Part shown: positions 40,533 to 63,312 of the stretch, piece by piece
How positions within the stretch are numbered: position 1 is the first letter of the stretch
How the letters are laid out: the number at the start of each line of letters is the position of its first letter
Assembly: GCA_016187745.1 (NCBI GenBank)
Contig: JACPJC010000005.1
Location: forward strand, 192,308-256,307
DNA from: Candidatus Iainarchaeum sp.
GTDB taxonomy: Archaea; Iainarchaeota; Iainarchaeia; Iainarchaeales; JAXPJC01
Reading direction: 5' to 3'
Length of the DNA: 64,000 nt
Notes under the pieces: generated by a model
What the model was told of the DNA's origin: nothing
The model's database searches: none
The model's input: only the letters and a program-made list of their open reading frames with translations
Program-made: the position numbers and the translations under genes

Positions 40533-40575
40533 TAAACCAAATGGTTGATTTTTGTTCAACCGCAGGTATATTAAT
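40533..40575 (+). promoter_or_regulatory. Palindromic operator-like site plus TATA-like box, copy A
   Basis: TAAACC-AAAT-GGTTGA-N7-TCAACC-GCAGG-TATATTAAT, 23 bp before ATG 40599. Confidence 0.8.
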
Positions 40576-40894
40576 CCTCAGAGCAGGGATTCTGAAAGAT
40601 GAGTGCAATGTATGAAATGACAAGAGTTCTTTCAGCAAAAACTGCAAAGCGCAGGACCCTTGCAGACCTTGCAGTTGCCATCCTGGGAAAGGAATGGCCT
40701 CTTTCCTTAAATGCCATACATCAAAGAATAACCAAAGGGCATGGAAAAGCCGCATCAATCCAGGCAACCCATAAGAGCCTTGCAAGGCTTGTAAAGCAGA
40801 ACATTCTTCTGAAGCAGAAAAAACGCTACAGATTGAGCCCGAAATGGCTTGAGCAAGTCAATAATTTCAGCATGCAGACAAAAGAGGCATATGC
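40533..40894 (+). repeat. ~360-bp direct repeat, copy 1 (operator, promoter and short wHTH gene)
   Basis: Matches 57263-57624; the offset is 16,730 bp at both ends. Confidence 0.95.
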
Positions 40895-40916
40895 AACCGG
40901 AGGCATTAAAAAATGA
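40599..40916 (+). CDS. Short 'EWPLS' winged-helix protein (DNA-binding domain only)
   Basis: ILGKEWPLS..SIQATHKSL..L..Y.L...W aligns with the N-termini of the five proteins at 52960-57225. Confidence 0.85.
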   Translation: MSAMYEMTRVLSAKTAKRRTLADLAVAILGKEWPLSLNAIHQRITKGHGKAASIQATHKSLARLVKQNILLKQKKRYRLSPKWLEQVNNFSMQTKEAYATGGIKK

Positions 40917-41093: not shown

Positions 41094-42695
41094 GTGAAAA
41101 AGAACATGCAATTTAATATGTCAAATAGTCAAATTTATGTGGCTGGTTCTCCAGCAGTAGGAAAAAACCTATTTTGCCCATTATTATCAGAAAAGACAAA
41201 CTCAAAATACATAAGATTTAATACCTTAATAAATAATAAGAATAAATTTCGTGTATCGGATTATATTGTTGAATACAAGAAAAATAACGTTTTTGCCTAT
41301 TATAATTATAAAACACTCCAAGTGGTTTACGGAAAAAAGAAGCTTAAACGAATAATGGATGAATATAAAAAACCTAAAAATTTGAAAACCTATCTTGCAA
41401 AGTCCTCAACAAAAAACACTACACTAAAAACAATTCTTAATACACTCATCCGTGAAGAATACTTAGTTAGTGGAACTGAAGGCCCGATTTTAAATAATGC
41501 GAAACTTGAAGAACGCAATCGAATCAACCCAAATTTATTACGAATTTTACTGACGTTTGATTGCAATCTAGAATGCAAATACTGTCAAATCAGAACCAAT
41601 CTTTTTAGTGAGTATAACAAACCAGTTACTAAAGAAGAAATCGACAAAGCCTTTGCATTGTTCAAGAAAAACAATAATGAATACAATATAATTTCTTTGT
41701 CTGGTGGAGAACCAATGCTCACTTTTGATTTAGTAAAGTATGTCGTAGAAAAATCCAAAAAAGAATTCAAACCTGGAAAATACCATATAGTATTGTCCTC
41801 TAATGGAACACTGATTACAGACTGCATCGCAGAGTATGTTGCCAAAAAAAACTTGTTGCCAATTATTTCCCTGGATGGTCAAGAAAAAGACAACAAAATG
41901 CGCATTTACCACAACGGCTTAGAATCCTACAAAAACATTCTTGCCGGAATTGAAACCCTAAAAAGACACAACTGCAAAAACATTGCCATTTCAATGACAA
42001 TCGGAGCTCACAACATAAAAAACATCAAAAAAACAATGCAAAACATTATCAACAAAATCAATCCAGTAAGCGTTGGCTACAATTTCGTTCACTATCCCTA
42101 CTTTAATAATCAACATTACTCTCTTCCTGATATTAATGATTACTCAAAAGCAGTCATTCACATTTTTACCGAACTTCGAAAGCACAAAATTTATGATGAG
42201 CAATTTTTCCGAAGACTCCAACCTTTTGTAGAACGAAAAATCCGAATAAAAGAATGCTCGGCACTCGGCGGCGCACTTAACCTCGTTCCTGGTGGCTTCA
42301 TTGGTCCATGCAAAACACTCTTGGCAAGCAAACACTTCTCCCAACCAATTGATAAAACAGAAAACTTAGGGGGTTCCAAGATTTTTACTGCATTTTCGAA
42401 CCGAAGCACATTAACATTGGATGAGTGTAAGAATTGTGTAGCCAGAACCATTTGTGGTGGAGGATGTACATTTGATTCCTTTGTAACGTATCACGATATT
42501 TTCCATGTAGACAAACGGAACTGCGAATATATCAGAAAAGTATTAGAATTTATGATTTGGGATCTATACAGACTAACTTCAAAGAAAAAAACTGATGTTT
42601 TGATTCCGACCAACAAGGATCGCAAAAAAATGTATGGGGGCATTAAACTTTTGAGTACCACCCTTACAGAATCCGTTGGCCATAAAATATATTGA
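41094..42695 (+). CDS. Radical SAM/SPASM-domain protein
   Basis: CNLECKYC, SGGEPML, SSNG, SLDG; SPASM-type ECSA..PC..CKNC..CGGGC..C. Confidence 0.93.
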   Translation: MKKNMQFNMSNSQIYVAGSPAVGKNLFCPLLSEKTNSKYIRFNTLINNKNKFRVSDYIVEYKKNNVFAYYNYKTLQVVYGKKKLKRIMDEYKKPKNLKTYLAKSSTKNTTLKTILNTLIREEYLVSGTEGPILNNAKLEERNRINPNLLRILLTFDCNLECKYCQIRTNLFSEYNKPVTKEEIDKAFALFKKNNNEYNIISLSGGEPMLTFDLVKYVVEKSKKEFKPGKYHIVLSSNGTLITDCIAEYVAKKNLLPIISLDGQEKDNKMRIYHNGLESYKNILAGIETLKRHNCKNIAISMTIGAHNIKNIKKTMQNIINKINPVSVGYNFVHYPYFNNQHYSLPDINDYSKAVIHIFTELRKHKIYDEQFFRRLQPFVERKIRIKECSALGGALNLVPGGFIGPCKTLLASKHFSQPIDKTENLGGSKIFTAFSNRSTLTLDECKNCVARTICGGGCTFDSFVTYHDIFHVDKRNCEYIRKVLEFMIWDLYRLTSKKKTDVLIPTNKDRKKMYGGIKLLSTTLTESVGHKIY

Positions 42696-49678: not shown

Positions 49679-49831
49679 CCTTAGGCTTTTCGTTATGCAT
49701 ATTGCTAAGTTTTTTGCCTGACATATTTATCCTCTAATTTTATGAGCATACTCATATGCAACATTCTCTTTCCCTGTCATCCCCCCAGCTAATTTCTATC
49801 TGAATTTATCCCTTCTTGGTAAATCTTTTAC

Positions 49832-49932
49832 TAAAGAACCTTGGCGCTGAACGCTCCGCTTTTCAAAGCGGAGATGAAAGCTATTGTACTTATCATAATT
49901 AAACGCCTTGGCATTTATGCCAAGGTTCTTTA
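49832..49932 (-). repeat. ~100-nt structured element with 14-bp terminal inverted repeats, copy 1
   Basis: TAAAGAACCTTGGC...GCCAAGGTTCTTTA with two internal hairpins; homologous to 62625-62728. Confidence 0.85.
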
Positions 49933-50000
49933 CATTCCTGCAATTCATCGCAGAACTTGCAGTTGAACTGGTAGCTTGCATACTGCCCAAAACAGGCCAT
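49899..50000 (-). CDS. Cys-rich mini-protein, copy 1 (33 aa; C-terminus supplied by the structured element)
   Basis: MACFGQYASYQFNCKFCDELQEC..., paralogous to 63163-63312. Confidence 0.5.
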   Translation of the reverse strand: MACFGQYASYQFNCKFCDELQECKEPWHKCQGV

Positions 50001-50261: not shown

Positions 50262-51044
50262 ATGCCAAAGGACGGGATTGAAAGGGTTGAGACGGGGATA
50301 AAGGGCTTGGACAAGGCGCTTAATGGCGGCGTTCCCCGCGGCAATTTAGTTCTTATTTCAGGCGGAGCAGGCACTGGAAAGAGCACGCTCTCCCTGCAAT
50401 TCGTTTACAACGGCGCAAAGCTCTATGGCGAAAAAGGCGTTTATTTTACCACAGAGCAGAGGGAAGATGAGCTTAGAAAACAAGCCACAAGATTCGGCTG
50501 GGATCTGGCAGCATTGGAAAAGAAAGGGCTGCTAAAGCTGATTTTCCTTGATATTGTGCACAAGGTGAATTTCTATGAAACAATTGAAACAACCATCAGA
50601 ACCTTCAAGCCTGAGAGAGTAGTAGTGGATTCAATGGTAACGCTTGCAGACAGCATGAGCATAACAGACTTCAAGGACCTTACTGCAATCTCATTTGCAC
50701 AGCTCTTGGAAAACGTGGGACCGCAGGCGCAGGTGCAGCAAGCGGAGAAGCTCATAACGCGCAATATTCTTTACAATCTCTACAGCGCGCTGAAGCAGGC
50801 GAATGTAACAGCGCTTCTGGTTTCAGAGCTGCCTGAAAAGAGCGATTTCCTGAGCGCTGATGAGATAAGTGAATTTATAAGTGATGGAGTTATTTTGTTG
50901 CATTATTTAGGCATTGGCAGCGCAGAGTTCAGATCATTACAAATTAGGAAAATGCGCTACACAACACATGAGAAAGATTACATTTTGTATGACATCGCTA
51001 ATACAGGAATTGAAATTAAAAAAGAAGCAGAAATAAAAGTTTGA
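50262..51044 (+). CDS. KaiC/RAD55-like RecA-superfamily ATPase
   Basis: TGIKGLD, GGAGTGKS, RVVVDS, SDGVILL, RSLQIRKMR. Confidence 0.93.
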   Translation: MPKDGIERVETGIKGLDKALNGGVPRGNLVLISGGAGTGKSTLSLQFVYNGAKLYGEKGVYFTTEQREDELRKQATRFGWDLAALEKKGLLKLIFLDIVHKVNFYETIETTIRTFKPERVVVDSMVTLADSMSITDFKDLTAISFAQLLENVGPQAQVQQAEKLITRNILYNLYSALKQANVTALLVSELPEKSDFLSADEISEFISDGVILLHYLGIGSAEFRSLQIRKMRYTTHEKDYILYDIANTGIEIKKEAEIKV

Positions 51045-51088
51045 ATGAACGAATTAAAATTTCTCTCAATAAAAGATGGAGAAGAACA

Positions 51089-51703
51089 ATGGGTGTTTTT
51101 GGAATAGAATATGGGGAGATAGCAAAACTTTTAATTGGTGGGCAACTTACGTTTAAAGAAGGAAAAATAGAGCTACTTGGAGAAGGCGTTACTTTTGTTC
51201 CACTTACAGACCACATCGCAGAAATAAAATATTATGAAAATATGAATGCGGAGAATGGAATATATATTGGAGCCAAATATACTGGTCTTACTTGGAATGA
51301 AAAAATGTTAACTAAATATAAAACAAAAACACCTAGGGAGATTTTTGAGTGGGGAAATAAAGTTATGAATCTTGCAGGCTACGGTGAATTCAAAGTTTAT
51401 AAAGAAAATAAAGATAGGACTGAATGGATCTGGAGAATTTATAATAGCCAAATAGCTGAAGCATACCTCAAGAAGTATGGAAAAGCAAAATGGCCAGTTT
51501 GCCACAGGGTTAGGGGCTACTTCGCCGGAGCAGCAAGCTTTGTAGCTAGAGTTGACTTGGATGCTGTGGAAGTAAAATGCAAAGCAAAAGGGGACTCATA
51601 TTGTGAATTTGTCATTAAAAAAAATAAAAAATTTAATATAGCAACTACATTAGTAAAAAAACAACTTAAAGATATAGGTCAGGAGTCATATGCAAGAGAA
51701 TAA
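51089..51703 (+). CDS. V4R (4-vinyl reductase-like) ligand-binding domain protein
   Basis: AGYGEF, PVCH..RGYFAG, EVKCKAKGDSYCEF; start moved to ATG 51089. Confidence 0.9.
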   Translation: MGVFGIEYGEIAKLLIGGQLTFKEGKIELLGEGVTFVPLTDHIAEIKYYENMNAENGIYIGAKYTGLTWNEKMLTKYKTKTPREIFEWGNKVMNLAGYGEFKVYKENKDRTEWIWRIYNSQIAEAYLKKYGKAKWPVCHRVRGYFAGAASFVARVDLDAVEVKCKAKGDSYCEFVIKKNKKFNIATTLVKKQLKDIGQESYARE

Positions 51704-52682
51704 ACCAATTAAGCTAAATGCATTAAAAAATCATGAGTCAAACTGGAAAACATTAGAACATACTGTTAAACTCTATAAAGAAGTTGGAAAACGCAACATA
51801 TATCTCTTTGATTGGCTTCTTTATATGTGGGAAAATTTATATCTTTCTTGTGTTGATTTAAAATGCATTGACTCATTAAGCACCACTAAAACAAAGGTTG
51901 CTATTCTTGATACTCTTATTGATGATGTTGCAGATAGTACTAAAATAGAAGATGATTTTTTTTTAAATGAACTTTCTAAGTTTGCTTTTGAAAGAAAGTA
52001 TATTGAATGGAATAAACTAAATCAATACCAAATAAAGTATATTAAAAATACCTTGGCTGTATGGGATGACATTATTGAAACTATCAAGAAATACCCCCGA
52101 TTTGAAGAATTTAAGAGAATTCTCGAATGGGATGTTAATCAAGTAATTAATTCAATGAAGTTTGCTCATTTAGTGAATACTGTCCCTAATCTCAATAACT
52201 TGGTTGAAAATAGAGCTTATGGACACCATAGTATGACAGTAATCATGTGTGGTACAATAGATTTAATGTGTTCTCCCTCATTCGATATGCGAGATTTTTC
52301 TAAAATTAGAAAAGTTCTATATTATGCCCAACAGTTAGCTAGAATTGGAAATATGATTAATACTTATCCAAGAGAAATAAATGAGGAGGATATCTCAAGT
52401 GAGATTCTCACAATGGCCATTGAAGATAAGATTATTGACTCAGAAAAATTAAAAAATAGTCTAAGGGATAAAAATAATGTTGTCTTAATTACTCAGTTAG
52501 TGAAAAAGTTTGATGAGTATTGGGATGATCTCTATTTTAAGATAAAAGAGGTAGGTAGAGATATAAAGTCTATTGATATTAATGAGTTTTTGAGAGAAAG
52601 AAAATTCATTCAACAGAAATATGAGGAACGAGTAAAATATTGGTTGAAAGATTATGCCGATAAACGATTCGTTGAATTTTAA
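51690..52682 (+). CDS. Class I terpene synthase/isoprenoid-fold protein
   Basis: DDxxD motif IDDVAD and NSE/DTE-like motif RIGNMINTYPRE at the expected spacing. Confidence 0.7.
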   Translation: MQENKPIKLNALKNHESNWKTLEHTVKLYKEVGKRNIYLFDWLLYMWENLYLSCVDLKCIDSLSTTKTKVAILDTLIDDVADSTKIEDDFFLNELSKFAFERKYIEWNKLNQYQIKYIKNTLAVWDDIIETIKKYPRFEEFKRILEWDVNQVINSMKFAHLVNTVPNLNNLVENRAYGHHSMTVIMCGTIDLMCSPSFDMRDFSKIRKVLYYAQQLARIGNMINTYPREINEEDISSEILTMAIEDKIIDSEKLKNSLRDKNNVVLITQLVKKFDEYWDDLYFKIKEVGRDIKSIDINEFLRERKFIQQKYEERVKYWLKDYADKRFVEF

Positions 52683-52959: not shown

Positions 52960-53823
52960 TTACCTGAAATATTTCATCAACTGTTTCTTCAAAAACTTTG
53001 CCATATCAGGATTTCTTGTTATTGTGAGGTCAAAATGCATCGGAGTTTTTAGTGTATTTCTGAAATATACCTCCCTGAAAAGGTCTGTAAGATTTTTGTT
53101 TCTGTTATACACTTCATCCAATATTTGTTTAGTTTCTGCAGAAGATACAACTTCAATTATACAATCTCCTTGAACATACAGCGAGTCATCGAATAGTTGT
53201 TCCTTTGTGCCTATTTTTACATTGCTTACACCTGCTCTTAGAAATTGTTTTTGAAGCCATTTATCAAATGGGCTGGCCAATGAAACAATAGCGTAAGTCT
53301 TCTTACAGTTTCTGGCAACGCCTTGCAAAATCGCAAAATCTTTGAAATTGAATCTTAATGGCCAATACATGTGCCTGAACCAAGCAATTGCTGTTGGGTC
53401 ACTATCTCCTGCTAAGATTCTATTTGCAAGCAACTCTGCTATAAAAACGGATAAAACGCTAAAGTCATTAAACTCCAATTTAATAGTCCCCTTGAAATTC
53501 GGATCAATGTCATAAATCATCCCTTCTTTGTTGTATAGTTTTTCCAAATTTGTAGAGAATTTCTTTATATTTGAAATCCAATCCTTGTTCAACTCATATT
53601 TTGCTCCCGCCCTGTAAATAATTCTGTTTTCTTCAAGCTGTTTTAAACTTTTATGGATAGCCTGGTAAGAAACATTTAACGAGAGCTGCCTCTTGGTTCT
53701 GCCATAAATTTCCTTAGCGCTCAATGGCCACTCCTGGCTTAGTATGGAGATGATGGCGTCTTTGGTGGTATTTTGTTTGGTGTTCAATTGCGGAATTATG
53801 GGATTAACCGGCATCTTATTCAC
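52960..53823 (-). CDS. 'EWPLS' winged-helix regulator, paralog 5
   Basis: IPQL..TKDAIISILSQEWPLSAKEIY..VSYQAIHK plus ~190-aa C-terminal domain. Confidence 0.85.
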   Translation of the reverse strand: MNKMPVNPIIPQLNTKQNTTKDAIISILSQEWPLSAKEIYGRTKRQLSLNVSYQAIHKSLKQLEENRIIYRAGAKYELNKDWISNIKKFSTNLEKLYNKEGMIYDIDPNFKGTIKLEFNDFSVLSVFIAELLANRILAGDSDPTAIAWFRHMYWPLRFNFKDFAILQGVARNCKKTYAIVSLASPFDKWLQKQFLRAGVSNVKIGTKEQLFDDSLYVQGDCIIEVVSSAETKQILDEVYNRNKNLTDLFREVYFRNTLKTPMHFDLTITRNPDMAKFLKKQLMKYFR

Positions 53824-54676
53824 TCCTGAAATATTTCATCAATTGCCTTTTCAAAAATTTTGCCATTGAAGGGTCCCGTGTTATTGTAACCTCAAAATGC
53901 ATTGGAGCCTTTAACGCGTCCCTGAAATACACTTCCCTGAAAAGATCTGTAATATTCTTGTTTCTGTTGTATATCTCATCCAATATCTGTTTAGTTCTTT
54001 GGGAGGCATTGAATTTTATCACGCTATCCCCGTGAACTATTAAATCATAATCAAATAGCTCTTCCCCAATCCCTATTTTTACACCTTTGAAACCGGCTTT
54101 CAAATACTGCTTCTGGACCCATTTATCAAACAAGCTGGCTGAAGAGGCAATAACATAGGCATTTTTGCAGTTTTTGCCTATGCGTTGAAGAAGCTCGAAA
54201 TCCTTAAAGTTAAATCTTAGCGGCCAATAGAGGTGCCTAAGCCAGCCAATTGCCATGGGGGCGCTATCTCCCACCAACGTATTGCTTGAGAGTATTTCCG
54301 CAAAAGTAACAATCATAACTGCATAATCATTAAACTGCCACTTAATTGTCCCCCTAAAGTTCCGGTCAATTTCATAAACCATCTCGTCTTTATTGTATAA
54401 TTTCTCCAGGTTTGTAAAAGATTTCTTTGTGTTTGAGATCCAGCTTCTGTTCAGCTCATATTCCCGCCCGACCTTGGAAATAATTCCCTCTTTTTCAAAT
54501 TGCTTTATTGTTTTGTGGACGGCCTGATAGGAAACATTCAAGGAAAGCTGCCTTCGGGCCCTGTTGTGGATTTCTTTTGCGGATAGGGGCCATTCTTGGC
54601 TAAGAATTGAGACAATTGCATCTTTGGCAGTTTTTTGCTTGGGATTTAATTGCGGAATTACAATATTGGTTGTCAT
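53816..54676 (-). CDS. 'EWPLS' winged-helix regulator, paralog 4
   Basis: Same architecture; closest to paralog 5 (RHLYWPLRFNFKDF). Confidence 0.85.
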   Translation of the reverse strand: MTTNIVIPQLNPKQKTAKDAIVSILSQEWPLSAKEIHNRARRQLSLNVSYQAVHKTIKQFEKEGIISKVGREYELNRSWISNTKKSFTNLEKLYNKDEMVYEIDRNFRGTIKWQFNDYAVMIVTFAEILSSNTLVGDSAPMAIGWLRHLYWPLRFNFKDFELLQRIGKNCKNAYVIASSASLFDKWVQKQYLKAGFKGVKIGIGEELFDYDLIVHGDSVIKFNASQRTKQILDEIYNRNKNITDLFREVYFRDALKAPMHFEVTITRDPSMAKFLKRQLMKYFRSE

Positions 54677-55533
54677 TTTTTATCGCCTTCAAAATACTTC
54701 AAATATTCCTCTCTTATCTGGTCAGCAAGAACCTGGTTCCTTGTTATGACCATGTTGATTATCGGCTTTGCATCCCTCATTCTGTCCAGATGGGATGCCA
54801 GATTGAATTCAGTAATGGTTTTCGGCGATTTGTTCTGCAAATACCATGCGTGCCTGAAATCAGGCGAATACCATATCTGCCCTACATAATCCCCTATAAC
54901 TATCGTATCGCACAAGGGAGTAGCGCACTCAACCCCAAACATGATGTGCTTTGCCCCGAAACCTTTCAAGCCATCTGCAAACATCCTGTCCAATAAATTA
55001 TCTTCCTGCGAGAAGATATAGTATGGAGTTTTTGCAAAAACCTCTTTTAATTCCGCATAATCCTCGTCTTTCAGGCCGACTATTGAGTAAATATTCCTCC
55101 ATAAGCAGATATTCGGCTTGTTTTTTGGGTTTGGATACTGCATATATATTCCAATCAGGAATCTTGCAAGCTCCAGAATTCCGATGAATGTGAGATTGGC
55201 AACATCCTTTTTGTGCAGGTCTTTAAGCTCATTAATCCCGATCTTGCCGGAATAATGCAGGTCCAGCGTGGCTGCGGAATGTTTGACTCTTTTGATCCAG
55301 TCCTTGTTCAGGGAATATTCATTCTCTTGCTTTTCCAATACTTTGTCATCCAGCAGCTGCAGAAGCAATTTGTGCACCGCCTGATAGCTGACATTCAGGC
55401 CATGCTCCCTAATAACTTTATTGTAAATCTTCTTTGCACTAAGCGGCCATTCCTGGCTTAAAATTGAGATAATTACGTCCTTGGTAGATTTATTCTTAGA
55501 AGCCAGCTGCGGAATTTGAATATCATCAATCAT
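54673..55533 (-). CDS. 'EWPLS' winged-helix regulator, paralog 3
   Basis: TKDVIISILSQEWPLSAKKIY..VSYQAVHK. Confidence 0.85.
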   Translation of the reverse strand: MIDDIQIPQLASKNKSTKDVIISILSQEWPLSAKKIYNKVIREHGLNVSYQAVHKLLLQLLDDKVLEKQENEYSLNKDWIKRVKHSAATLDLHYSGKIGINELKDLHKKDVANLTFIGILELARFLIGIYMQYPNPKNKPNICLWRNIYSIVGLKDEDYAELKEVFAKTPYYIFSQEDNLLDRMFADGLKGFGAKHIMFGVECATPLCDTIVIGDYVGQIWYSPDFRHAWYLQNKSPKTITEFNLASHLDRMRDAKPIINMVITRNQVLADQIREEYLKYFEGDKK

Positions 55534-56381
55534 TTTCTCTCTCCCTTGAAATATTCCATTGTCTGTTCCCTGATTCTGTCTGCAACTTCCCGATTCTTTG
55601 AAACTATAACATTGAACTTATCACTATGCTCATATATGAGCATCAGCAGTTTGCTAAGTCTCAGTTTGTCTAAAATTCTAGCAATTTTGCAGTATCTAAG
55701 CCAGTCCTTTCTGAATTTTGGTGAGAAATAAATTAGCCCAACGTAATCTCCCTGGACCATCGTGTCAGGATTAAAGGGAATATCAGCCCCCAATAGAACT
55801 TTTGCCCCAAGACCTGTGAAGTTTTCAGCAAATATCTTGTCCATTGTTGTCTGGTTGTGCCCCAACATATAGTATTGTGTTTGTGAAAGCCTTTGCCTTA
55901 ATCTCCGGTATTCCGAATCGGAAAGGCTGATTGGGGGGTAGATGCTCCACCAATGACAAATTCCTGGCTTCTTGTCAGGATTTGGATATGCAAAAAATAC
56001 ATCCAAGATGAATCTCGCCAGATCCATAGGGTCATTAAATGTGAAATTGAATACTTCCTGATTTTCAGAATGTTTCATTGATGCAGGAATTTTAGTTATG
56101 TATGCCCTTTCTATGAATTCCCCGAAATTCTTAATGCTTCTAATCCAATCCAGGTTTAACATAAATCCTTTTTCAATCTTCTTTATTTGCCCTGCACTTT
56201 CCATCTCATTCAAAGTTTTATGAACTGCCTGATATGAAATCGCAATCGTACGCTTTCTAAGCAAGCGATTGCAAATCTCTTTGGCACTCAAAGGCCACTC
56301 TTCAGCCAAGATTGCAATAATTTGGTCTTTCGTTGATTTTGATTTAGAATTCAGCTGTGGGATTGAAATGTCCATAGCCAT
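55530..56381 (-). CDS. 'EWPLS' winged-helix regulator, paralog 2
   Basis: TKDQIIAILAEEWPLSAKEI..ISYQAVHK. Confidence 0.85.
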   Translation of the reverse strand: MAMDISIPQLNSKSKSTKDQIIAILAEEWPLSAKEICNRLLRKRTIAISYQAVHKTLNEMESAGQIKKIEKGFMLNLDWIRSIKNFGEFIERAYITKIPASMKHSENQEVFNFTFNDPMDLARFILDVFFAYPNPDKKPGICHWWSIYPPISLSDSEYRRLRQRLSQTQYYMLGHNQTTMDKIFAENFTGLGAKVLLGADIPFNPDTMVQGDYVGLIYFSPKFRKDWLRYCKIARILDKLRLSKLLMLIYEHSDKFNVIVSKNREVADRIREQTMEYFKGERK

Positions 56382-56382
56382 T

Positions 56383-57225
56383 TTACTCCCCCTTCCTGAA
56401 ATATGACAAGGTCTGCTTTTTCAGGAATTGCGCAAGCCCTTTGTTGCGGTTGATTACCACAGGGATCCTGACCTTTTTCTCAAACACGTTCCTGAAAAAC
56501 CCGTCAGCATCAATGTCATTTGCGCCTGATGCGCGCTCATAAACCTTGTCAATTTCGTATTTTATTGCCTGGGGGTAAAAGACCTCTGCTACAATGTCCT
56601 TGTATATTACCATGTCAATAGTGGATGCTGAGTCAACACCGCACTTTGCATGAATTCCTTTCTTACGCCAAAAATTGCAGAACTGCCTGTCAATTGCGGT
56701 ATTGCCCCTTGTTATGGAATATGTATTGCATGCAGCCAGGATTTCATTCATCTGCCTGTATTCCTCCATAAACATAAAAAGCGGTATCCAGAAATGGGTC
56801 CAGTGCAGGCAAAGAACCTCTTTTTTGCCTGAGATTTCCTTCTTCCCAAATCCTATAAGGAATTTGTCCACATCATAAACCGAATTAAACATGAGATTCA
56901 ATGGATTGGCGTTTGGATTCTGCGGCTCATTTAACGCATATGCTGTTTCCAGATGCTCGCTGAATTCCTTAATATTCTTTATCCATTCGTTGTCCAGCAG
57001 ATATGCCATGCCCTGGCTTGCTATTATCCTGTGCGATTGAAGCGTATTGAGCGTCTTATGAACCGCCTGATAGGAAATGCCGATTGCCTGCTGCCTGCGG
57101 AGCTTGTTGTAAATCTGCTTGGCTGTAAGGGGCCACTCTTCGCTGAGTATTGAAATAATCGCGTCCTTCGTGGAGCCTGCTTTTGAACCGAATTGCGGCA
57201 GGATTGGGCTTGAGCCTGTAGGCAT
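56383..57225 (-). CDS. 'EWPLS/T' winged-helix regulator, paralog 1 (first gene of the array)
   Basis: TKDAIISILSEEWPLTAKQIY..ISYQAVHK; start moved to ATG 57225. Confidence 0.85.
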   Translation of the reverse strand: MPTGSSPILPQFGSKAGSTKDAIISILSEEWPLTAKQIYNKLRRQQAIGISYQAVHKTLNTLQSHRIIASQGMAYLLDNEWIKNIKEFSEHLETAYALNEPQNPNANPLNLMFNSVYDVDKFLIGFGKKEISGKKEVLCLHWTHFWIPLFMFMEEYRQMNEILAACNTYSITRGNTAIDRQFCNFWRKKGIHAKCGVDSASTIDMVIYKDIVAEVFYPQAIKYEIDKVYERASGANDIDADGFFRNVFEKKVRIPVVINRNKGLAQFLKKQTLSYFRKGE

Positions 57226-57262
57226 AATAAGTAAATATAGTGGAGGGGAAGCTTTTTTAAAT

Positions 57263-57305
57263 TCAACCATTTAGTTGATTTCTGTTCAACCGCAGGTATA
57301 TTAAT
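57263..57305 (+). promoter_or_regulatory. Palindromic operator-like site plus TATA-like box, copy B (divergent promoter region)
   Basis: TCAACC-ATTT-AGTTGA-N7-TCAACC-GCAGG-TATATTAAT, 23 bp before ATG 57329. Confidence 0.8.
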
Positions 57306-57624
57306 CCTCAGAGCGGGAATTCTGAAAGATGAGTGCAATGTACGAAATGACAAGGCTTCTTTCAGCAAAAACTGCAAAGCGCAAAACTCTTGCAGACCTT
57401 GCAGTTGCTATCCTGGGCAGGGAATGGCCCCTTTCCTTAAATGCCATACACCAGAAAATAACCAAAGGACATGGAAAAGCCGCATCAATCCAGGCAACCC
57501 ATAAAAGCCTTGCAAGGCTTGTAAGGCAAAATGTTCTTCTGAAAAGTAAAAAACGCTACAGACTGAGCCCGAAATGGCTTGAGCAGGTAAATAATTTCAG
57601 CATGCAGACGAAAGAGGCTTATGC
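57263..57624 (+). repeat. ~360-bp direct repeat, copy 2
   Basis: Matches 40533-40894. Confidence 0.95.
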
Positions 57625-57643
57625 GTTGTCATGTAACAGCTAA
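57329..57643 (+). CDS. Short 'EWPLS' winged-helix protein, copy 2
   Basis: 7 substitutions versus 40599-40916 over the first 99 aa, then a different tail. Confidence 0.85.
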   Translation: MSAMYEMTRLLSAKTAKRKTLADLAVAILGREWPLSLNAIHQKITKGHGKAASIQATHKSLARLVRQNVLLKSKKRYRLSPKWLEQVNNFSMQTKEAYALSCNS

Positions 57644-57658
57644 ACACACATTGAGACT

Positions 57659-60280
57659 GTGATGAAAATGAATGAATTTTACCATGCTAGAAGACTTAAG
57701 ATTCTTGAACTCATGAAACAAGAAAAGACACAACACCCCAACAAAAATTATCTTTCTATTCACAAACAGGTATGTAGTTATCCTGTTTTGTCAATCGTTG
57801 CTCCAGTCGTAGACAGCTATCAGGATAAAATAGAGTTTCCTGGCGACCCAATGTGCTTGTACACTGCCCTCGCTTACCCAATCAAGCAAGTAGTGGACCA
57901 CGTTGATAAAGTTTCAAAAGAGTTTGATCAATTTCCAGAGAGAAAAATTGGCTTCTACAACGACCTTTTCCCACAATGGTTTCAACTTCCATCTAACGGC
58001 TACAGAAACTTTGCTTCCGAAGAACAAATATCAAAGTATGACTACAAAGACGGTGACTTTTTTAACACAGACCAACTAGTTTTTGATCCGCGAGCATGGA
58101 CACCTGATACCAAAGATTGTCTAAATAGGCTGTTGAACTTTATAGATCCAAAAGTCGTATTGATTAGTGGGGTTTCTTCGGCGCAAAAATTTGTAGTTGA
58201 AATTGCAAAGATCGTGAAAGACTATAATGATAAAATAATAATCATAGTGGGGGGACGGCACGCAGATGAAACAATAAAAGAAAAAAATGGTGAAATTGTT
58301 TTTGAACAGGCTAGCATAGTAAGTGCTATTGCAGAAAAAAGAATACTGCCCGTAATTGACATTGTGTTATCTGGCGAGGGCTATTATGCGTTAGATTTTC
58401 TCATGAAAACAATATCCCAAAGTATGGATATTGAAAAAAAGATTGTTTTGGATTCAAAGATTTTGCTTGAATCGCTTACAAAAAAAGAGCATTTGTTAGC
58501 AAAGGTTCTAGGAAAGGCAATCATCACCTGTCTTATCGGAGGAAAAATACGATTTTTTGTGACAAGTGGGAAAAAAACAAGATTGGAATACCCCTTTGTA
58601 ATTAGAGCACGTTTTTCTGTATTCTCTGAAAAAGAGAATAAACCGCCAATAACCGCCCACATAAATACTTCACACACTTGCCTTTACAGTTGCTTATATT
58701 GTTCAGAAGGCAAAAATGTCGTCAATCGAAATGTGTATGCTAGCGAAAAAAGATACTTTAAAAAAACAATCAAAGACTATTTGGATTATGGGGCATTGGC
58801 ATTCTTTTTTGATGATTCAGTCCTTTGCGGTGGGAACATTGCAAGAATTGGAATTTTGCTAGAAGCGCTTTCAGAATTAAGGGAAGAAGCGAAAAAGAAA
58901 ATGAAAACATTCTCCTATTTGGATCCCTGTCTTGAGAAAGTGTACAGGACAGCAAATTTTGAATGGGGGGCTCAGCTAACATTTGATTCAATTACAACAG
59001 TCTTGCCAAAGGAAGAAGCGAGAAACATTCTGAAAAAAATGAATGAAACTGGTTGCAGATACTTGTATTTTGGCATTGAGAGCCTTGCTGAAAAAGTAAT
59101 AAGAAATGTCCACAAGAACTTGCCCAACAAGGATGCTGATTGGCTGGAAAAAACAATAAAAGCGCTGGAACTAGTTAAAGAGGCAAATATCCGTGCAGGT
59201 GCTTCCGTTTTATTTGGGTTGCCTGGAGAAACAATGCAAACAATAGACTTCACCATCAATGAGGTCGCAAAACTGGTGCGAAAAAACCTTCTTTTAATAG
59301 TCAGCCCAAACATCCTTTCATATCATCCAGGAACACTAATAACTGAAATGGATTCTGCGAAGGAGAAAATAGATTATTTTAACCAAATAGAGGATATCAG
59401 TCCACCCTATTCTTATTTTGAAGAAGCATTCAGATGCCTTGTTTCAATAAGGCTAACCGAGGAAATGATTTGGCACATTCATAATCAAACAAAATTAAAA
59501 TGGAAAAAACACCGCAACATGAATTTAATGAAGATCCCCAGACTTCCGATGGATATCACAAAAGAAAGACTGGTGAGTTTTTATTCCACTATTGGAAATA
59601 GGCTTGTAGAACAAAAAAATTATCCCCCCGAAATCAATGAATTTCTTGAACTAGAAAAAAAGTTGTTTAAAGACTTGGTTAAAAAAGAAAACTGCAAAAT
59701 TATTGTTGAAGTTGGTTGCATGGATACTGGGTTCATTCTTCAAGAAACCATAGAAGCTGGACTTTCCTATATTGGAATAGATGTGGTTAAGGAATTGGTT
59801 GAAAAACTAAATACAACAATATCCAATTCTGCTTTTGATAAAGGCATAAACACAGCAATAGCCTATAATCAGGGGGTGGAAGAACTGTCGAAAATTATCA
59901 AAAAAAGTAAATTGACTGCTGGAGAAACATTAGCTGTCTTTCCATTCAACAGTTTTGGCAATATCACAGACCCAGAAAAAGCAGTTAATGAAATATGCAA
60001 ACTTGGAATGAACATGGCAGTATTTACCTACAAAACAGATCCTCAAACAACAAAAATCAGAAAAAAATATTATTTCAACTGCGACTACAAGAATACAAAA
60101 GAGTTAAAAGAAGATAAAGGGATATTATTTCAGTCGGAAGATGGTTTAATGTCTTACGCCTATAAGGAGTCATACATAAAAAAATTGTTGTCCAAAAGAG
60201 ACTATGAATACAAATTAATCAAGTTTGGTGCAATTGGAGCCTTATATTTTTGCAAAAAAAGGAGGATGCCAAATGGATAA
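57659..60280 (+). CDS. B12-binding-type radical SAM protein fused to a C-terminal methyltransferase-like domain
   Basis: IIVGGRHA, GEG, CLYSCLYC, FFDD, GIESL, LFGLPGET; C-terminal IVEVGC..YIGIDV..FNSFGN. Confidence 0.85.
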   Translation: MMKMNEFYHARRLKILELMKQEKTQHPNKNYLSIHKQVCSYPVLSIVAPVVDSYQDKIEFPGDPMCLYTALAYPIKQVVDHVDKVSKEFDQFPERKIGFYNDLFPQWFQLPSNGYRNFASEEQISKYDYKDGDFFNTDQLVFDPRAWTPDTKDCLNRLLNFIDPKVVLISGVSSAQKFVVEIAKIVKDYNDKIIIIVGGRHADETIKEKNGEIVFEQASIVSAIAEKRILPVIDIVLSGEGYYALDFLMKTISQSMDIEKKIVLDSKILLESLTKKEHLLAKVLGKAIITCLIGGKIRFFVTSGKKTRLEYPFVIRARFSVFSEKENKPPITAHINTSHTCLYSCLYCSEGKNVVNRNVYASEKRYFKKTIKDYLDYGALAFFFDDSVLCGGNIARIGILLEALSELREEAKKKMKTFSYLDPCLEKVYRTANFEWGAQLTFDSITTVLPKEEARNILKKMNETGCRYLYFGIESLAEKVIRNVHKNLPNKDADWLEKTIKALELVKEANIRAGASVLFGLPGETMQTIDFTINEVAKLVRKNLLLIVSPNILSYHPGTLITEMDSAKEKIDYFNQIEDISPPYSYFEEAFRCLVSIRLTEEMIWHIHNQTKLKWKKHRNMNLMKIPRLPMDITKERLVSFYSTIGNRLVEQKNYPPEINEFLELEKKLFKDLVKKENCKIIVEVGCMDTGFILQETIEAGLSYIGIDVVKELVEKLNTTISNSAFDKGINTAIAYNQGVEELSKIIKKSKLTAGETLAVFPFNSFGNITDPEKAVNEICKLGMNMAVFTYKTDPQTTKIRKKYYFNCDYKNTKELKEDKGILFQSEDGLMSYAYKESYIKKLLSKRDYEYKLIKFGAIGALYFCKKRRMPNG

Positions 60281-61420: not shown

Positions 61421-61463
61421 TAAACCATTTAGTTGATTTCTGTTCAACCGCAGGTATATTAAT
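61421..61463 (+). promoter_or_regulatory. Palindromic operator-like site plus TATA-like box, copy C
   Basis: TAAACC-ATTT-AGTTGA-N7-TCAACC-GCAGG-TATATTAAT, 32 bp before ATG 61496. Confidence 0.8.
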
Positions 61464-61495
61464 GCCAAAATTCTATGTATAAAAAGTGAGGTAGA

Positions 61496-62236
61496 ATGAT
61501 GCTGAAGAGAAATGTTTTGTTGTGCCTTTCAATGCTGCTGTTAAGCCCATTTGTTTCTGCAATAGGCTCTGAATTGAATGGCAGTGAAAACTACAATTAT
61601 AATCTTGCAGAGTTGAACAAACTACTGCCGTATATGGCTCTGAATAAGGATTATTCTGTAAAATTTGATTCTGTCGTGGCAAAAGCAGAGCTGCCGGAGA
61701 AGTATGTAAAATTGGGAAAGCTTTATGAAGAATATCATAACAACTTTATTCAGGCTGCAAAGGCCAATGGAGTTTACTCGAACAAAATAAAAGAATTGCC
61801 GGACAATCAATTCTTCAGCAATTTCTTCGAGTCTAAAAGCACAATGACAGCTCAAGCCACAATCTCTGCAAGCAGCCTGGTTTGCGGGGGAAGCCAGCAG
61901 CAGCCGCATCAATGCCCTGCAAGGGTAAATTCAGGGATATCCAAGAAAAGCCAGACAGAAATATCAAATTATTTAAAGGGCATGGGATTCCACAATACTT
62001 ATTGGCCAGGCTGCGGGCCGCAGGGATATACCTGCTCAACAGACTTTACAAAGTGGATAAGTGCATATAATTGCACTTGGGGCTCTTTCAGAACCCAGGC
62101 AAATATCTTTCAAAGCGGAACAAAATGGACTTACAGAACACAATCCCCTGAGCCGAATCCGGAGATTTTCAGCTATTCATGGCCAGTATACTGGTGGGGA
62201 ACTTATGTTTCATGGTGGCACTTATCTTGCAACTGA
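61496..62236 (+). CDS. Secreted Cys/Trp-rich hypothetical protein
   Basis: Signal peptide ending VSA; C-terminal PEPNPE..Y.WP.YWW..YV.WWH. Confidence 0.8.
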   Translation: MMLKRNVLLCLSMLLLSPFVSAIGSELNGSENYNYNLAELNKLLPYMALNKDYSVKFDSVVAKAELPEKYVKLGKLYEEYHNNFIQAAKANGVYSNKIKELPDNQFFSNFFESKSTMTAQATISASSLVCGGSQQQPHQCPARVNSGISKKSQTEISNYLKGMGFHNTYWPGCGPQGYTCSTDFTKWISAYNCTWGSFRTQANIFQSGTKWTYRTQSPEPNPEIFSYSWPVYWWGTYVSWWHLSCN

Positions 62237-62592: not shown

Positions 62593-62624
62593 TATCGATA
62601 AGGATAACTATCTTCTGTATTTAC

Positions 62625-62728
62625 TAAAGAACCCTGGCGCTGAACGCTTCGTTCTTCAGAACTGAGATGAAAACTATTCTGATTGTTGTCATTCCTAAAC
62701 GCCCTGGCATTTATGCCAAGGTTCTTTA
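62625..62728 (-). repeat. ~100-nt structured element with terminal inverted repeats, copy 2
   Basis: Homologous to 49832-49932, with G-U and compensatory changes. Confidence 0.85.
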
Positions 62729-62741
62729 CGAATCAGGGGAC

Positions 62742-62784
62742 TAAACTATTTGGTTGATTTCTGTTCAACCTCACATATATTAAT
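62742..62784 (+). promoter_or_regulatory. Palindromic operator-like site plus TATA-like box, copy D
   Basis: TAAACT-ATTT-GGTTGA-N7-TCAACC-TCACA-TATATTAAT, 32 bp before ATG 62817. Confidence 0.75.
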
Positions 62785-62816
62785 CCTCAGGGCGCGGGTT
62801 ATAATGGGGGTGTGCT

Positions 62817-63170
62817 ATGGGAAAAATTGTTTTGAATATTCTGGAGCTTGCCTGCTTCAGGATTGCAAAGGAGCAGGGAATCAGGTGGTTTGAATTGCCC
62901 CATGCAAAAGTCTTATCAGGCTTGTGCAATGGTAGGAAGCAGGGCCCTGAGGAAATTGCAGAAAATGCAGGAATTTCAAGGGACGAGGCATTTGGGGCGC
63001 TTGATGCGCTGGTTGCGAACAAGGCGCTCAGCTACGATGGCAACAGGTATTTTGCTGAAGATGCCCTGCAGGCAGTAAATATGCTGATTGACCTCGCGGA
63101 AGCAAAGCAAATAAAGCAGCCAATAGTGCAAATGCAGAAGGAGACTGAACTGCTGGAAGAATATGCCTGA
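62817..63170 (+). CDS. TrmB-like helix-turn-helix protein
   Basis: AKVLSGL..EEIAENAGISRDEAFGALDAL..RYFA. Confidence 0.75.
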   Translation: MGKIVLNILELACFRIAKEQGIRWFELPHAKVLSGLCNGRKQGPEEIAENAGISRDEAFGALDALVANKALSYDGNRYFAEDALQAVNMLIDLAEAKQIKQPIVQMQKETELLEEYA

Positions 63171-63312
63171 TGAAAAATCAAAAGTGCCGGAAATGGTCTG
63201 CTTCGGGCAGTACGCGAGCTATTACTTCAACTGCAAGTTCTGCGATTCCCTGCAGGAATGCAGGGAATTTACAACCGCAAGGCGCGGGCGGGCAAAAACA
63301 AAACATTTATAG
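63163..63312 (+). CDS. Cys-rich mini-protein, copy 2 (49 aa)
   Basis: Hand translation MPDEKSKVPEMVCFGQYASYYFNCKFCDSLQECREF...; overlaps the upstream stop. Confidence 0.65.
   Translation: MPDEKSKVPEMVCFGQYASYYFNCKFCDSLQECREFTTARRGRAKTKHL

What the first reader, a model, noticed from the sequence alone, without database searches (positions are those of the whole stretch)
52960..57225. Tandem array of five paralogous wHTH sensor-type regulators with diverged C-terminal domains
Seen: five ORFs of about 280-287 aa with overlapping or abutting stops and starts. The N-terminal IPQL..TKD.II.IL..EWPLS...SYQA.HK domain is conserved, while the ~190-aa C-terminal domains diverge (shared H/R.YW, Y and .GD.I motifs), and paralogs 4 and 5 are a recent pair. 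Inference: a diversifying repertoire of one-component sensors that read different ligands through a shared operator. I cannot assign a named family.
Basis: partly seen in the sequence, partly recalled or inferred. Interest (0 to 1): 0.72.

Follow-up and report, generated by a model that had tools for sequence, protein, structure and literature searches.

The report
TrmBL2-like regulator array sharing one operator
Five neighbouring genes in a tiny groundwater (DPANN) archaeon encode related DNA-binding proteins from a large, unnamed family; they share one DNA-reading helix and one conserved DNA target site but have different tail domains, which gives a directly testable gene-control circuit in organisms whose gene regulation is largely unknown.

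Summary
Five co-directional, overlapping or abutting ORFs (280-287 aa) lie at 52960-57225 on the minus strand. Their wHTH domains are 50-57% identical and their C-domains 16-34%.

They match no Pfam, NCBIfam, PADLOC or PHROG family. An exhaustive profile search still finds 2,360 representative clusters, mostly in DPANN archaea.

Two AlphaFold models (pLDDT 85 and 90) both match TrmBL2 over their full length (E about 1e-8), then PLD-fold proteins. The HKD catalytic motif is absent.

The five copies represent four ancient subfamilies, each with orthologues in arrays of other lineages. dN/dS is 0.05-0.12, so this is a conserved cassette and not a young diversifying repertoire.

The recognition helix (S/T-Y-Q-A-V-H-K) is 94-100% invariant in 140 members. 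A palindrome, GGTTGA-N7-TCAACC, lies just upstream of BRE/TATA at the array's divergent promoter and at three other promoters in the window. It recurs upstream of family genes across phyla (10 observed against 0.33 expected). A reverse search from the operator alone recovered family genes in 16 of 80 loci.

Arrays are linked to KaiC-like ATPase, V4R and isoprenoid-enzyme genes. The signal input (ligand or partner protein) is untested. I rate it a new variant of a known kind, of moderate to high interest.

The parts
56383..57225 (-). Paralog 1 (280 aa from ATG 57225), subfamily B: wHTH + coiled-coil helix + PLD-like domain
   Evidence: ORF; profile match hmm5-285, E 3e-95; falls in clade B with L024, L001, L006 and L005 members (98* SH-aLRT)
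55530..56381 (-). Paralog 2 (283 aa), subfamily C; used for the second structure model
   Evidence: sister to L006_9093 (96*); AF2 pLDDT 89.6; Foldseek puts TrmBL2 first at E 1.7e-8; 90% identical orthologue in L200
54673..55533 (-). Paralog 3 (286 aa), subfamily D
   Evidence: clade with L010, L015, L020 and L031 members (99*); 81% identical orthologue in L200
53816..54676 (-). Paralog 4 (286 aa), clade A (the KaiC-linked subfamily); used for the first structure model
   Evidence: AF2 pLDDT 85; Foldseek puts TrmBL2 first at E 1e-8, then NucT, PLD and PPK; clade A has 100% support and 11/40 members KaiC-adjacent against 4/100 for the rest
52960..53823 (-). Paralog 5 (284-287 aa), clade A; closest relative of paralog 4 (66% identity)
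   Evidence: orthologues P0005 and P0007 at 84-98% identity by segment
57253..57305 (.). Divergent promoter with central operator: TATA(-) 57253-57261, half-sites TCAACC 57263-57268, AGTTGA 57273-57278 and TCAACC 57286-57291, TATA(+) 57297-57305
   Evidence: Sequence; repeat family D2; alignment A4; motif statistics; same module upstream of the L006 short form
57329..57643 (+). Short form 2 (104 aa): wHTH plus dimerisation helix only, with Y50 replaced by Ile; heads the B12-rSAM/methyltransferase cassette
   Evidence: (hmm10-96, E 3e-23); Pfam of the downstream gene
40533..40916 (+). Operator/promoter copy (palindrome 40543-40561) plus short form 1 (40599-40916, 105 aa), heading an rSAM and SerRS cassette; 89% nucleotide-identical duplicate of 57255-57554
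   Evidence: D1 and D2 repeats
61421..61498 (+). Third copy of the operator/TATA module (palindrome 61431-61449), upstream of a 246-aa predicted secreted Cys-containing protein (61496-62236)
62742..63170 (+). Fourth copy of the operator/TATA module (palindrome 62752-62770), upstream of a small 117-aa wHTH-like protein (62817-63170); its relatives lie beside arrays in 11 loci
   Evidence: the relative in L011 matches Pfam TrmB PF01978 at 2e-6
50262..51703 (+). KaiC-like ATPase (50262-51044) and V4R-domain protein (51041-51703), the recurrent partners of the family, converging on the array
   Evidence: Pfam KaiC 5e-57 and V4R 2e-12; KaiC in 37 of 78 loci and V4R in 25; same convergent layout in the close relative L200

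Best explanation
The five genes form one translationally coupled operon of paralogous transcription regulators. They belong to a large, uncurated, DPANN-centred family with the TrmBL2 architecture: an N-terminal winged helix, a long amphipathic helix that would dimerise the protein, and a non-catalytic PLD-like alpha/beta domain. All paralogs keep the same recognition helix (S/T-Y-Q-A-V-H-K), so all should bind the same palindrome, GGTTGA-N7-TCAACC. This operator lies as a cluster of three half-sites between two divergent TATA boxes at the array's own promoter, which implies autoregulation. It also lies directly upstream of BRE/TATA at three other promoters in the window: two short-form + radical-SAM cassettes, a secreted protein, and a small wHTH protein. 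The four ancient C-domain subfamilies, each under purifying selection, would supply different inputs to this single regulon. Each input could be a small ligand or, given the genomic linkage, the neighbouring KaiC-like ATPase/V4R signalling pair, so the array would integrate several signals on shared promoters. The wHTH-only short forms keep the dimerisation helix but have lost Tyr50, and would modulate the system as competitors or heterodimer partners. Shown here: the ORFs, family size and distribution, predicted fold, absence of the HKD motif, subfamily phylogeny, selection regime, operator enrichment in both search directions, and synteny. Inferred: actual DNA binding, the sign of regulation, the nature of the inputs, and heteromerisation.
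For: ORFs and coupling. N-domain conserved and C-domain diverged. No curated family. Family size 2,360 clusters. DPANN distribution. Fold: two AF2 models, with Foldseek placing TrmBL2 first (E 1e-8, prob 1.0, full length) and then NucT, Nuc, PLD, Zucchini and PPK. TrmB-family layout and key Tyr50: PMC4158304. Recognition helix 94-100% invariant in 140 members and no HxK(x)4D. Four ancient subfamilies. Purifying selection, dN/dS 0.05-0.12. Operator: four copies in the window, 0 of 100 shuffles reach that count. Ten hits in 98 upstream regions against 0.33 expected (P=3e-12), zero hits for 29 control half-site permutations, and seven hits in other genomes with a TATA box 5-6 nt downstream. Reverse test: 16 of 80 operator-selected metagenome loci encode the family. 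KaiC and V4R linkage. Precedent for palindrome position deciding repression or activation in TrmB/TrmBL1: PMC4706686.
Against: There is no experimental or expression evidence; no RNA run holds the locus. The link to TrmBL2 is by predicted fold only. Global TM-scores are 0.32-0.38 because the domain orientation differs, sequence identity is about 10%, and no Pfam TrmB or Regulator_TrmB match reaches threshold. TrmBL2 itself is a largely non-specific chromatin protein without a known ligand, so the word 'sensor' is not justified by the fold. The operator could in principle be bound by another factor, such as the small wHTH or the short form. However, full-length family genes are the only common denominator in several operator-bearing loci (L035, L061, L069, L071). 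Only 10 of 98 upstream regions carry an exact palindrome. I could not examine a pocket because no model coordinates were available.
Confidence: 0.65

Rival explanations
1. One reading: independent one-component sensors. Each paralog is a homodimeric regulator whose PLD-like domain binds a different small ligand. Given the neighbouring GGR, UbiA and terpene-synthase-like genes, the ligand could be a phosphate-bearing or isoprenoid/lipid metabolite. The paralogs would compete for the shared operator.
For: The C-domains are deeply diverged yet each is under purifying selection. Semi-conserved polar residues H148, D184, D211, D217 and N268 could line a site. TrmB and TrmBL1 sense sugars (PMC4158304). 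Isoprenoid enzymes recur beside the arrays.
Against: The proteins end after the PLD-like domain and lack the C-terminal subdomain that, in TrmB, carries the sugar-binding part. TrmBL2 lacks those 70 residues and has no known effector. No pocket analysis was possible. The KaiC/V4R linkage offers a separate sensor.
Confidence: 0.3
2. Hetero-oligomeric architectural or chromatin complex. As with TrmBL2 tetramers and filaments, the co-translated paralogs assemble into one multi-subunit DNA-coating or DNA-bridging complex, nucleated at the GGTTGA sites. Under this reading they are not separate regulators.
For: TrmBL2 is the best structural match and acts as a chromatin protein and global repressor (PMC4158304; PMC4877046 listed). 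Translational coupling of four ancient subfamilies suggests stoichiometric co-production. The hydrophobic positions of the helix are conserved across subfamilies (W79 95%, I80, F86, Y94). Half-sites occur in clusters of three.
Against: About half of the loci carry a single copy (39 of 72), so a fixed hetero-complex is not required. A specific, promoter-proximal palindrome conserved across phyla argues for sequence-specific regulation. Array size and order vary.
Confidence: 0.15
3. wHTH-PLD nuclease or defence module, by analogy with the PLD-wH type IV restriction fusions.
For: The PLD fold is fused to a winged helix. PLD-wH endonucleases exist in bacteria (PMC11037411). The region is AT-rich and island-like.
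Against: No HxK(x)4D or variant catalytic motif is conserved. There are no PADLOC or PHROG hits, and the family is absent from 2.9 million viral contigs. The domain order is the reverse of PLD-wH. Orthologues are conserved and under purifying selection, and there is a promoter-linked operator.
Confidence: 0.03

Closest known systems
TrmBL2 (P. furiosus PF0496 / T. kodakarensis TK0471; PDB 5bpd, 5bpi, 5bqt, 5box)
   Same: Same length class (264 vs 280-287 aa). Same three-part layout: winged helix, long helix, then a PLD-like alpha/beta domain without the extra sugar-binding subdomain. Best Foldseek match for two diverged paralogs (E about 1e-8). A Tyr at position 50 at the start of the recognition helix.
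   Different: About 10% sequence identity and no Pfam TrmB or Regulator_TrmB match. TrmBL2 is a single-copy, abundant, largely non-specific chromatin protein of Thermococcales. This family is in DPANN archaea, occurs in tandem arrays of up to 8 copies, and is tied to a specific palindromic operator and to KaiC/V4R genes.
TrmB / TrmBL1 sugar-sensing regulators (Pfam PF01978 + PF11495)
   Same: wHTH plus coiled-coil dimer binding a palindrome near BRE/TATA (TGM TATCAC-N5-GTGATA). The operator's position decides repression or activation (PMC4706686).
   Different: TrmB and TrmBL1 carry an additional C-terminal sugar-binding part (about 70 aa more). The operator sequence differs. They have no arrays and no KaiC linkage.
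KaiC-like ATPase signalling neighbourhoods of archaea (Makarova, Galperin & Koonin 2017, mBio 8:e01959-17; cited from memory and, because the paper was not readable here)
   Same: A single-domain KaiC-like ATPase sits next to putative sensor domains (V4R, FIST, Roadblock-like) and DNA-binding proteins.
   Different: I could not verify whether this particular wHTH-PLD-like family, or its arrays and operator, were described there.
PLD-wH type IV restriction endonucleases (Aba4572I, CbaI; PMC11037411)
   Same: A winged helix combined with a PLD-fold domain.
   Different: Those are bacterial, have the opposite domain order, and keep catalytic His/Lys motifs. The family here lacks the motif and shows a regulatory, not a defence, context.
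Single-domain TrmB-like regulators and dominant-negative HLH proteins (analogy for the short forms)
   Same: The short forms are a DNA-binding or dimerisation module without the C-domain. MreA and OxsR-type single-wHTH TrmB proteins exist (PMC4158304; PMC9426492, listed).
   Different: The short forms here are paralogs of the array proteins. They have lost the invariant Tyr50 in one conserved subgroup (window x2, L006, L019) and sit directly behind the shared operator.

Membership tests
TrmB family (Pfam PF01978 TrmB wHTH) | N-terminal wHTH matches PF01978 at the gathering threshold | tested here: not met
   None of the 5 window paralogs matches. Only 2 of 64 family members match, at E 0.004 and below cut-off. 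The best weak hits are to FUR and HTH_12.
TrmB family (Pfam PF11495 Regulator_TrmB C-domain) | C-terminal effector domain matches PF11495 | tested here: not met
   No hit in 64 members at E<=0.01. The profile search against PDB sequences finds no TrmB or TrmBL2 chain.
TrmB superfamily architecture (TrmBL2 type) | wHTH, then a long coiled-coil helix, then a PLD-like alpha/beta domain | tested here: met
   AF2 secondary structure: H17-63 plus wing 66-75, helix 77-94/96, alpha/beta domain 110-280. Foldseek full-length hits to 5bpd, 5bpi, 5bqt and 5box at E 1e-8 to 2e-7. Caveat: these are predicted models, and the global TM is 0.32-0.38.
TrmB superfamily | Key DNA-contacting Tyr (Y50 in TrmB) in the recognition helix | tested here: inconclusive
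   Y50 is 99% conserved at the start of the predicted recognition helix, and TrmB Y50 is described in PMC4158304. Residue-level structural equivalence was not checked.
TrmB / TrmBL1 sugar sensors | Additional C-terminal sugar-binding subdomain | tested here: not met
   The proteins end right after the PLD-like domain, at 280-287 aa, like the 264-aa TrmBL2.
TrmBL2 chromatin proteins | Abundant, largely sequence-non-specific DNA coating | not testable with these tools
   There is no expression or binding data. The conserved specific palindrome argues against purely non-specific binding.
PLD superfamily enzymes and nucleases (HKD) | Catalytic HxK(x)4D(x)6G(S/G)xN motif | tested here: not met
   Column statistics on 140 members: H148 is 74% conserved but has no Lys two residues on. 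If D217 is taken as the motif Asp, the positions where His and Lys would sit relative to it are Tyr and Leu in paralog 4.
PLD superfamily | PLD/nuclease fold of the C-domain | tested here: met
   Foldseek hits to NucT 6ehi, Nuc 1byr, PLD 7e0m, PLD3/4, Zucchini 4ggj and PPK1, with prob 0.98-1.0 and TMt 0.53-0.61 for the small nucleases.
KaiC-like ATPase signalling neighbourhoods | Conserved adjacency to a KaiC-like ATPase gene | tested here: met
   KaiC is present in 37 of 78 loci. Clade A members are directly adjacent in 11 of 40 cases, against 4 of 100 for the others, p=2e-4. The same layout is present in the window, L001 and L200.
Known anti-phage defence or viral families | Match to PADLOC or PHROG models, or presence on viral contigs | tested here: not met

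The most novel reading that the evidence does not exclude
DPANN archaea may run a combinatorial transcription-factor system. In it, paralogous TrmBL2-like proteins from four ancient subfamilies would heterodimerise through a common coiled-coil helix on one shared operator. Tyr50-less short forms would act as dominant-negative partners, analogous to Id-type or microProtein inhibitors. The PLD-like tails would dock onto a KaiC-like ATPase/V4R hub, or bind isoprenoid or phospholipid-type phosphates. The system would couple membrane-lipid or host-derived signals to radical-SAM cassettes and surface proteins.
Probability: 0.15. Interest if true: 0.85.

Novelty: new variant of a known kind. Interest (0 to 1): 0.62.

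Why it matters
DPANN archaea are ultra-small, mostly uncultured symbionts, and almost nothing is known about their gene regulation. This analysis defines a large family (at least 2,360 clusters at 50% identity) that no database names. It assigns the family a fold (TrmBL2-like) and predicts its operator (GGTTGA-N7-TCAACC, immediately upstream of BRE/TATA), with support from two independent search directions. It also outlines a candidate regulon (the family's own arrays, short forms, radical-SAM cassettes, secreted and surface proteins) and a candidate upstream module (KaiC-like ATPase, V4R, FIST, Roadblock-like, isoprenoid enzymes).

All of this can be tested with recombinant proteins and synthetic DNA, without cultivating the organism. 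The arrangement is several ancient paralogs with an identical DNA-reading head and different tails, kept in tandem and translationally coupled. I know of no close parallel among described archaeal transcription factors, so it may be a simple prokaryotic case of combinatorial signal integration on one operator.

Tried and rejected
- **Curated family assignment:** Pfam, NCBIfam, PADLOC and PHROGs gave only sub-threshold wHTH hits.
- **Sequence link to solved structures:** none was found with two profiles.
- **Word-indexed homologue search:** it found only 27 relatives. This proved a large underestimate once the exhaustive profile search returned 2,360 clusters.
- **Nuclease or defence reading:** rejected, because there is no HKD motif, no defence-model hit, and no presence on viral contigs.
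- **Recent diversifying expansion with positive selection:** rejected for the array as a whole.
- **Homology between the window's V4R or terpene-synthase-like genes and the L001 genes at the same positions:** none. The partners are conserved at the family level only.
- **Expression evidence:** no RNA runs hold the locus; DNA runs are groundwater metagenomes only.
- **Makarova et al. 2017 KaiC paper:** not held in the library, so prior description of this neighbourhood could not be checked. No other paper found describes the family.

Full report
**1. Observation**

The window carries five co-directional ORFs on the minus strand: 56383-57270, 55530-56381, 54673-55533, 53816-54676 and 52960-53823.
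- The first ORF most likely starts at ATG 57225 (CAT at 57223-57225). The 15 extra residues are not conserved in homologues and would run into the operator.
- The junctions are a 1-nt gap, two ATGA overlaps, and an 8-nt overlap or 1-nt gap. This is consistent with one translationally coupled operon.
- Pairwise identities by domain: wHTH 50-57%, linker helix 25-50% and C-domain 16-34% between distinct paralogs. For the closest pair (53816/52960) they are 71, 75 and 64%.
- A sixth, wHTH-only relative lies divergently at 57329-57643 and a seventh at 40599-40916.

**2. No curated family, but a large one**
- Pfam, NCBIfam, PADLOC and PHROGs give only sub-threshold wHTH matches (FUR, HTH_12) and nothing for the C-domain. 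This holds for the window proteins and for 64 diverse members.
- The word-indexed search found only 27 unnamed relatives.
- The exhaustive profile search found 2,360 representative clusters at E<=1e-3, of which 593 are at <=1e-30.
- Among named genomes the family is overwhelmingly DPANN: 20 Iainarchaeota loci, then Woesearchaeota, Aenigmatarchaeota, Micrarchaeota, Pacearchaeota and Nanoarchaeota. A few contigs are binned as Methanosarcinales, and three short contigs carry implausible labels.
- The window itself comes from groundwater metagenomes. Earlier notes on the same genome call it a DPANN archaeon.
- The family is absent from 2.9 million viral contigs.

**3. Fold**
- I modelled two paralogs from the two most diverged C-domain classes with family alignments: 53816-54676 (pLDDT 85.1) and 55530-56381 (pLDDT 89.6).
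- Both show a winged helix (three helices plus a beta-wing, residues about 17-75), a long helix (77-96) and an alpha/beta domain (110-280).
- Foldseek against the PDB ranks TrmBL2 chains first for both models, over the full length (E 1e-8 to 2e-7, probability 1.0).
- PLD-fold proteins follow, matching the C-domain only: NucT, Nuc, PLD, PLD3/4, Zucchini and polyphosphate kinase.
- Global TM-scores are low (0.32-0.38) because the relative domain orientation differs. For the small nucleases, TM normalised by target length is 0.53-0.61.
- The TrmB review (PMC4158304) describes exactly this layout for the TrmB family. It notes the key DNA-contacting Tyr50, and that TrmBL2 (264 aa) lacks the roughly 70-residue sugar-binding part.
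- In this family Tyr50 is 99% conserved at the start of the predicted recognition helix.
- The PLD catalytic HxK(x)4D motif is absent. A semi-conserved polar set remains (H148, D184, D211, D217, N268).
Membership of the Pfam TrmB families fails at the sequence level.

**4. The array is an old cassette, not a young expansion**
- Tandem arrays are a family trait. Of 72 loci, 33 hold two or more full-length copies. Of 38 loci of at least 15 kb, 19 hold two or more and 13 hold three or more. The maximum is 8 copies plus a short form (L006).
- In a maximum-likelihood tree, the window's five copies fall into four well-supported subfamilies, each containing members of arrays from other lineages. Only 52960 and 53816 are each other's closest relatives.
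- Even that pair has saturated synonymous sites.
- A close relative (L200) has separate orthologues of paralogs 2-5 at 73-90% identity, with paralogs 2 and 3 in swapped order.
- Orthologue dN/dS is 0.05-0.12 in both domains of all four pairs. Each diverged C-domain is thus functionally constrained, and I see no gene-wide positive selection.
- What does look dynamic is recombination within clade A. For paralog 5, dS jumps from 0.72 in the N-domain to 2.71 in the C-domain.
- One metagenomic protein (P0003) is a three-way mosaic of paralogs 1, 4 and 5. Because its contig ends 21 nt upstream, an assembly artefact cannot be excluded.

**5. Shared operator**

Window evidence:
- The recognition helix S/T49-Y50-Q51-A52-V53-H54-K55 is 94-100% invariant at five of the seven positions and 68-80% at the other two, across 140 full-length members from all subfamilies.
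- The window holds four copies of a roughly 45-nt module, TAAACCATTTRGTTGATTTCTGTTCAACCGCAGGTATATTAATCC, at 40533, 57263, 61421 and 62742.
- The core palindrome GTTGA-N7-TCAAC gives 5 matches at up to 3 mismatches, against 0.36 expected; 0 of 100 shuffles reach that count.
- At the array's promoter the geometry is TATA(-) 57253-57261, TCAACC 57263-57268, AGTTGA 57273-57278, TCAACC 57286-57291, TATA(+) 57297-57305, then ATG 57329. Three half-sites are thus sandwiched between divergent TATA boxes.

Evidence from other genomes:
- GTTGA-N6-8-TCAAC occurs 10 times in 98 upstream regions of family genes (20.5 kb), against 0.33 expected from the rest of the same loci (Poisson P=3e-12). None of 29 control permutations of the half-site occurs at all.
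- Seven of those hits are in other phyla. Their spacers are unrelated, the extended half-site is GGTTGA/TCAACC, and in most of them a TATA-like box follows 5-6 nt downstream.
- The Iainarchaeum locus L006 has almost the same full module in front of its own short form.
- Reverse test: I scanned metagenome contigs for TCAACC-N5-GTTGA-N7-TCAACC alone. Sixteen of the 80 loci returned encode a family member, usually within 30-1,500 nt. Roughly 0.005 would be expected from the family's frequency.
- In several operator-bearing loci the full-length family gene is the only recurrent DNA-binding gene (L035, L061, L069, L071). This makes the family the most parsimonious binder.

Other genes preceded by the operator:
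- radical-SAM genes (the window via its short forms, L006 and L071);
- secreted or giant surface proteins;
- small wHTH proteins.

**6. Context**
- Within 6-10 kb of family genes the most frequent neighbours are: a single-domain KaiC-like ATPase (37 of 78 loci), V4R proteins (25), a GGR-like FAD oxidoreductase (19), FIST (15), a Roadblock-like small protein (12), a membrane protein (11) and a UbiA prenyltransferase (10). They often form blocks such as FIST-GGR-Roadblock-membrane-KaiC-family-V4R.
- Clade A, which contains paralogs 4 and 5, is the KaiC-adjacent subfamily: 11 of 40 members against 4 of 100, p=2e-4.
- In the window the KaiC-V4R-(terpene-synthase-like)-DUF2061 operon converges on the array. 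In L200 the same position holds KaiC-V4R-V4R-UbiA.

**7. Mechanism**

Most likely (0.65): the five proteins are sequence-specific regulators that share one operator and autoregulate from a divergent promoter.
- *Input.* Their four kinds of C-domain convey different inputs. The fold's nearest relative has no ligand, and the genes are wired to KaiC/V4R. I therefore regard partner-protein input and direct ligand binding as about equally plausible.
- *Sign of regulation.* This is open. The palindrome centre lies about 44 nt upstream of the expected start of the plus-strand transcript and abuts the BRE. By TrmB precedent that would repress through steric hindrance; by TrmBL1 precedent it would activate (PMC4706686).
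- *Short forms.* They retain the dimerisation helix. In a conserved subgroup (window x2, L006, L019) they have replaced Tyr50, which fits a competitor or heterodimer role.
- *Rivals.* These are independent ligand sensors (0.3, a sub-variant of the main reading), a hetero-oligomeric TrmBL2-like architectural complex (0.15), and a wHTH-PLD nuclease (0.03).

**8. Novelty and verdict**

This is a new, family-level variant of a known kind: TrmB-superfamily-type archaeal regulators, TrmBL2 architecture.
- Several features appear undescribed in the literature I could search. These are the tandem multi-subfamily arrays, a cross-phylum operator, the short forms and the KaiC/V4R/isoprenoid linkage.
- I could not read Makarova et al. 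2017 on KaiC neighbourhoods, so prior mention of the neighbourhood cannot be excluded.
- Interest is 0.62. It is not a categorically new mechanism, but it is a large dark-matter family turned into a concrete, testable regulon in a poorly understood group of organisms.

Noticed in passing
L200:1-3305 (Logan contig, close relative) vs window 52960-56381: The relative has orthologues of paralogs 2-5 (73-90% identity), but paralogs 2 and 3 are in swapped order. For paralog 5, dS is 0.72 in the N-domain and 2.71 in the C-domain, which indicates a replaced (mosaic) C-domain.
   Followed up: partly
L199:22-882 (protein P0003): A three-way mosaic protein: the N-terminus is paralog-1-like (78%), the helix paralog-4-like (96%) and the C-domain paralog-5-like (97%). 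It lies next to DUF2061 as paralog 5 does. It could arise by recombination through the conserved SYQAVHK-coding repeat (D5 family at 53648, 54510, 55367, 56215 and 57053) or be an assembly chimera, since the contig ends 21 nt upstream.
   Followed up: partly
window 51690-52682; L200:3322-4170; many loci: The gene after KaiC-V4R is an isoprenoid enzyme of varying type: terpene-synthase-like with IDDVAD and NMINTYPRE motifs in the window, UbiA in L200. GGR-like FAD oxidoreductases (19 loci) and UbiA (10 loci) recur beside the arrays. This hints that the module is tied to isoprenoid or lipid metabolism.
   Followed up: partly
window 57659-60280, 41094-42695; L006:12678-13682; L071:8036-9406: The operator, or a short form preceded by it, heads different radical-SAM genes in the window and in two other phyla. 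It also precedes secreted or giant surface proteins (L005, L015, L033, L061, window 61496-62236).
   Followed up: partly
window 49827-49933 and 62620-62729: Two copies of a roughly 100-nt repeat (D6/D8, 80-89% identity), with an 82-nt inverted partner at 63186-63267. One copy lies just upstream of the KaiC operon, the other just upstream of the fourth operator copy.
   Followed up: no
window 38000-64000: The whole 26-kb stretch holding the arrays, KaiC operon and radical-SAM cassettes is AT-rich (GC 0.33-0.43, against 0.43-0.50 over most of the first 38 kb), which is island-like. Even so, the KaiC/V4R/array synteny is conserved across DPANN lineages.
   Followed up: no
proteins P0028, P0029, P0030, P0037, P0043, P0060: Representative proteins of 445-644 aa match the family profile two or three times. 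They are either naturally fused tandem copies or gene calls that read through between adjacent copies.
   Followed up: no
L050, L052, L023: Short contigs (2-3 kb) that carry the family are labelled Pseudomonadota, Falkowbacteria and Thaumarchaeota. They are probably mis-binned DPANN fragments.
   Followed up: no
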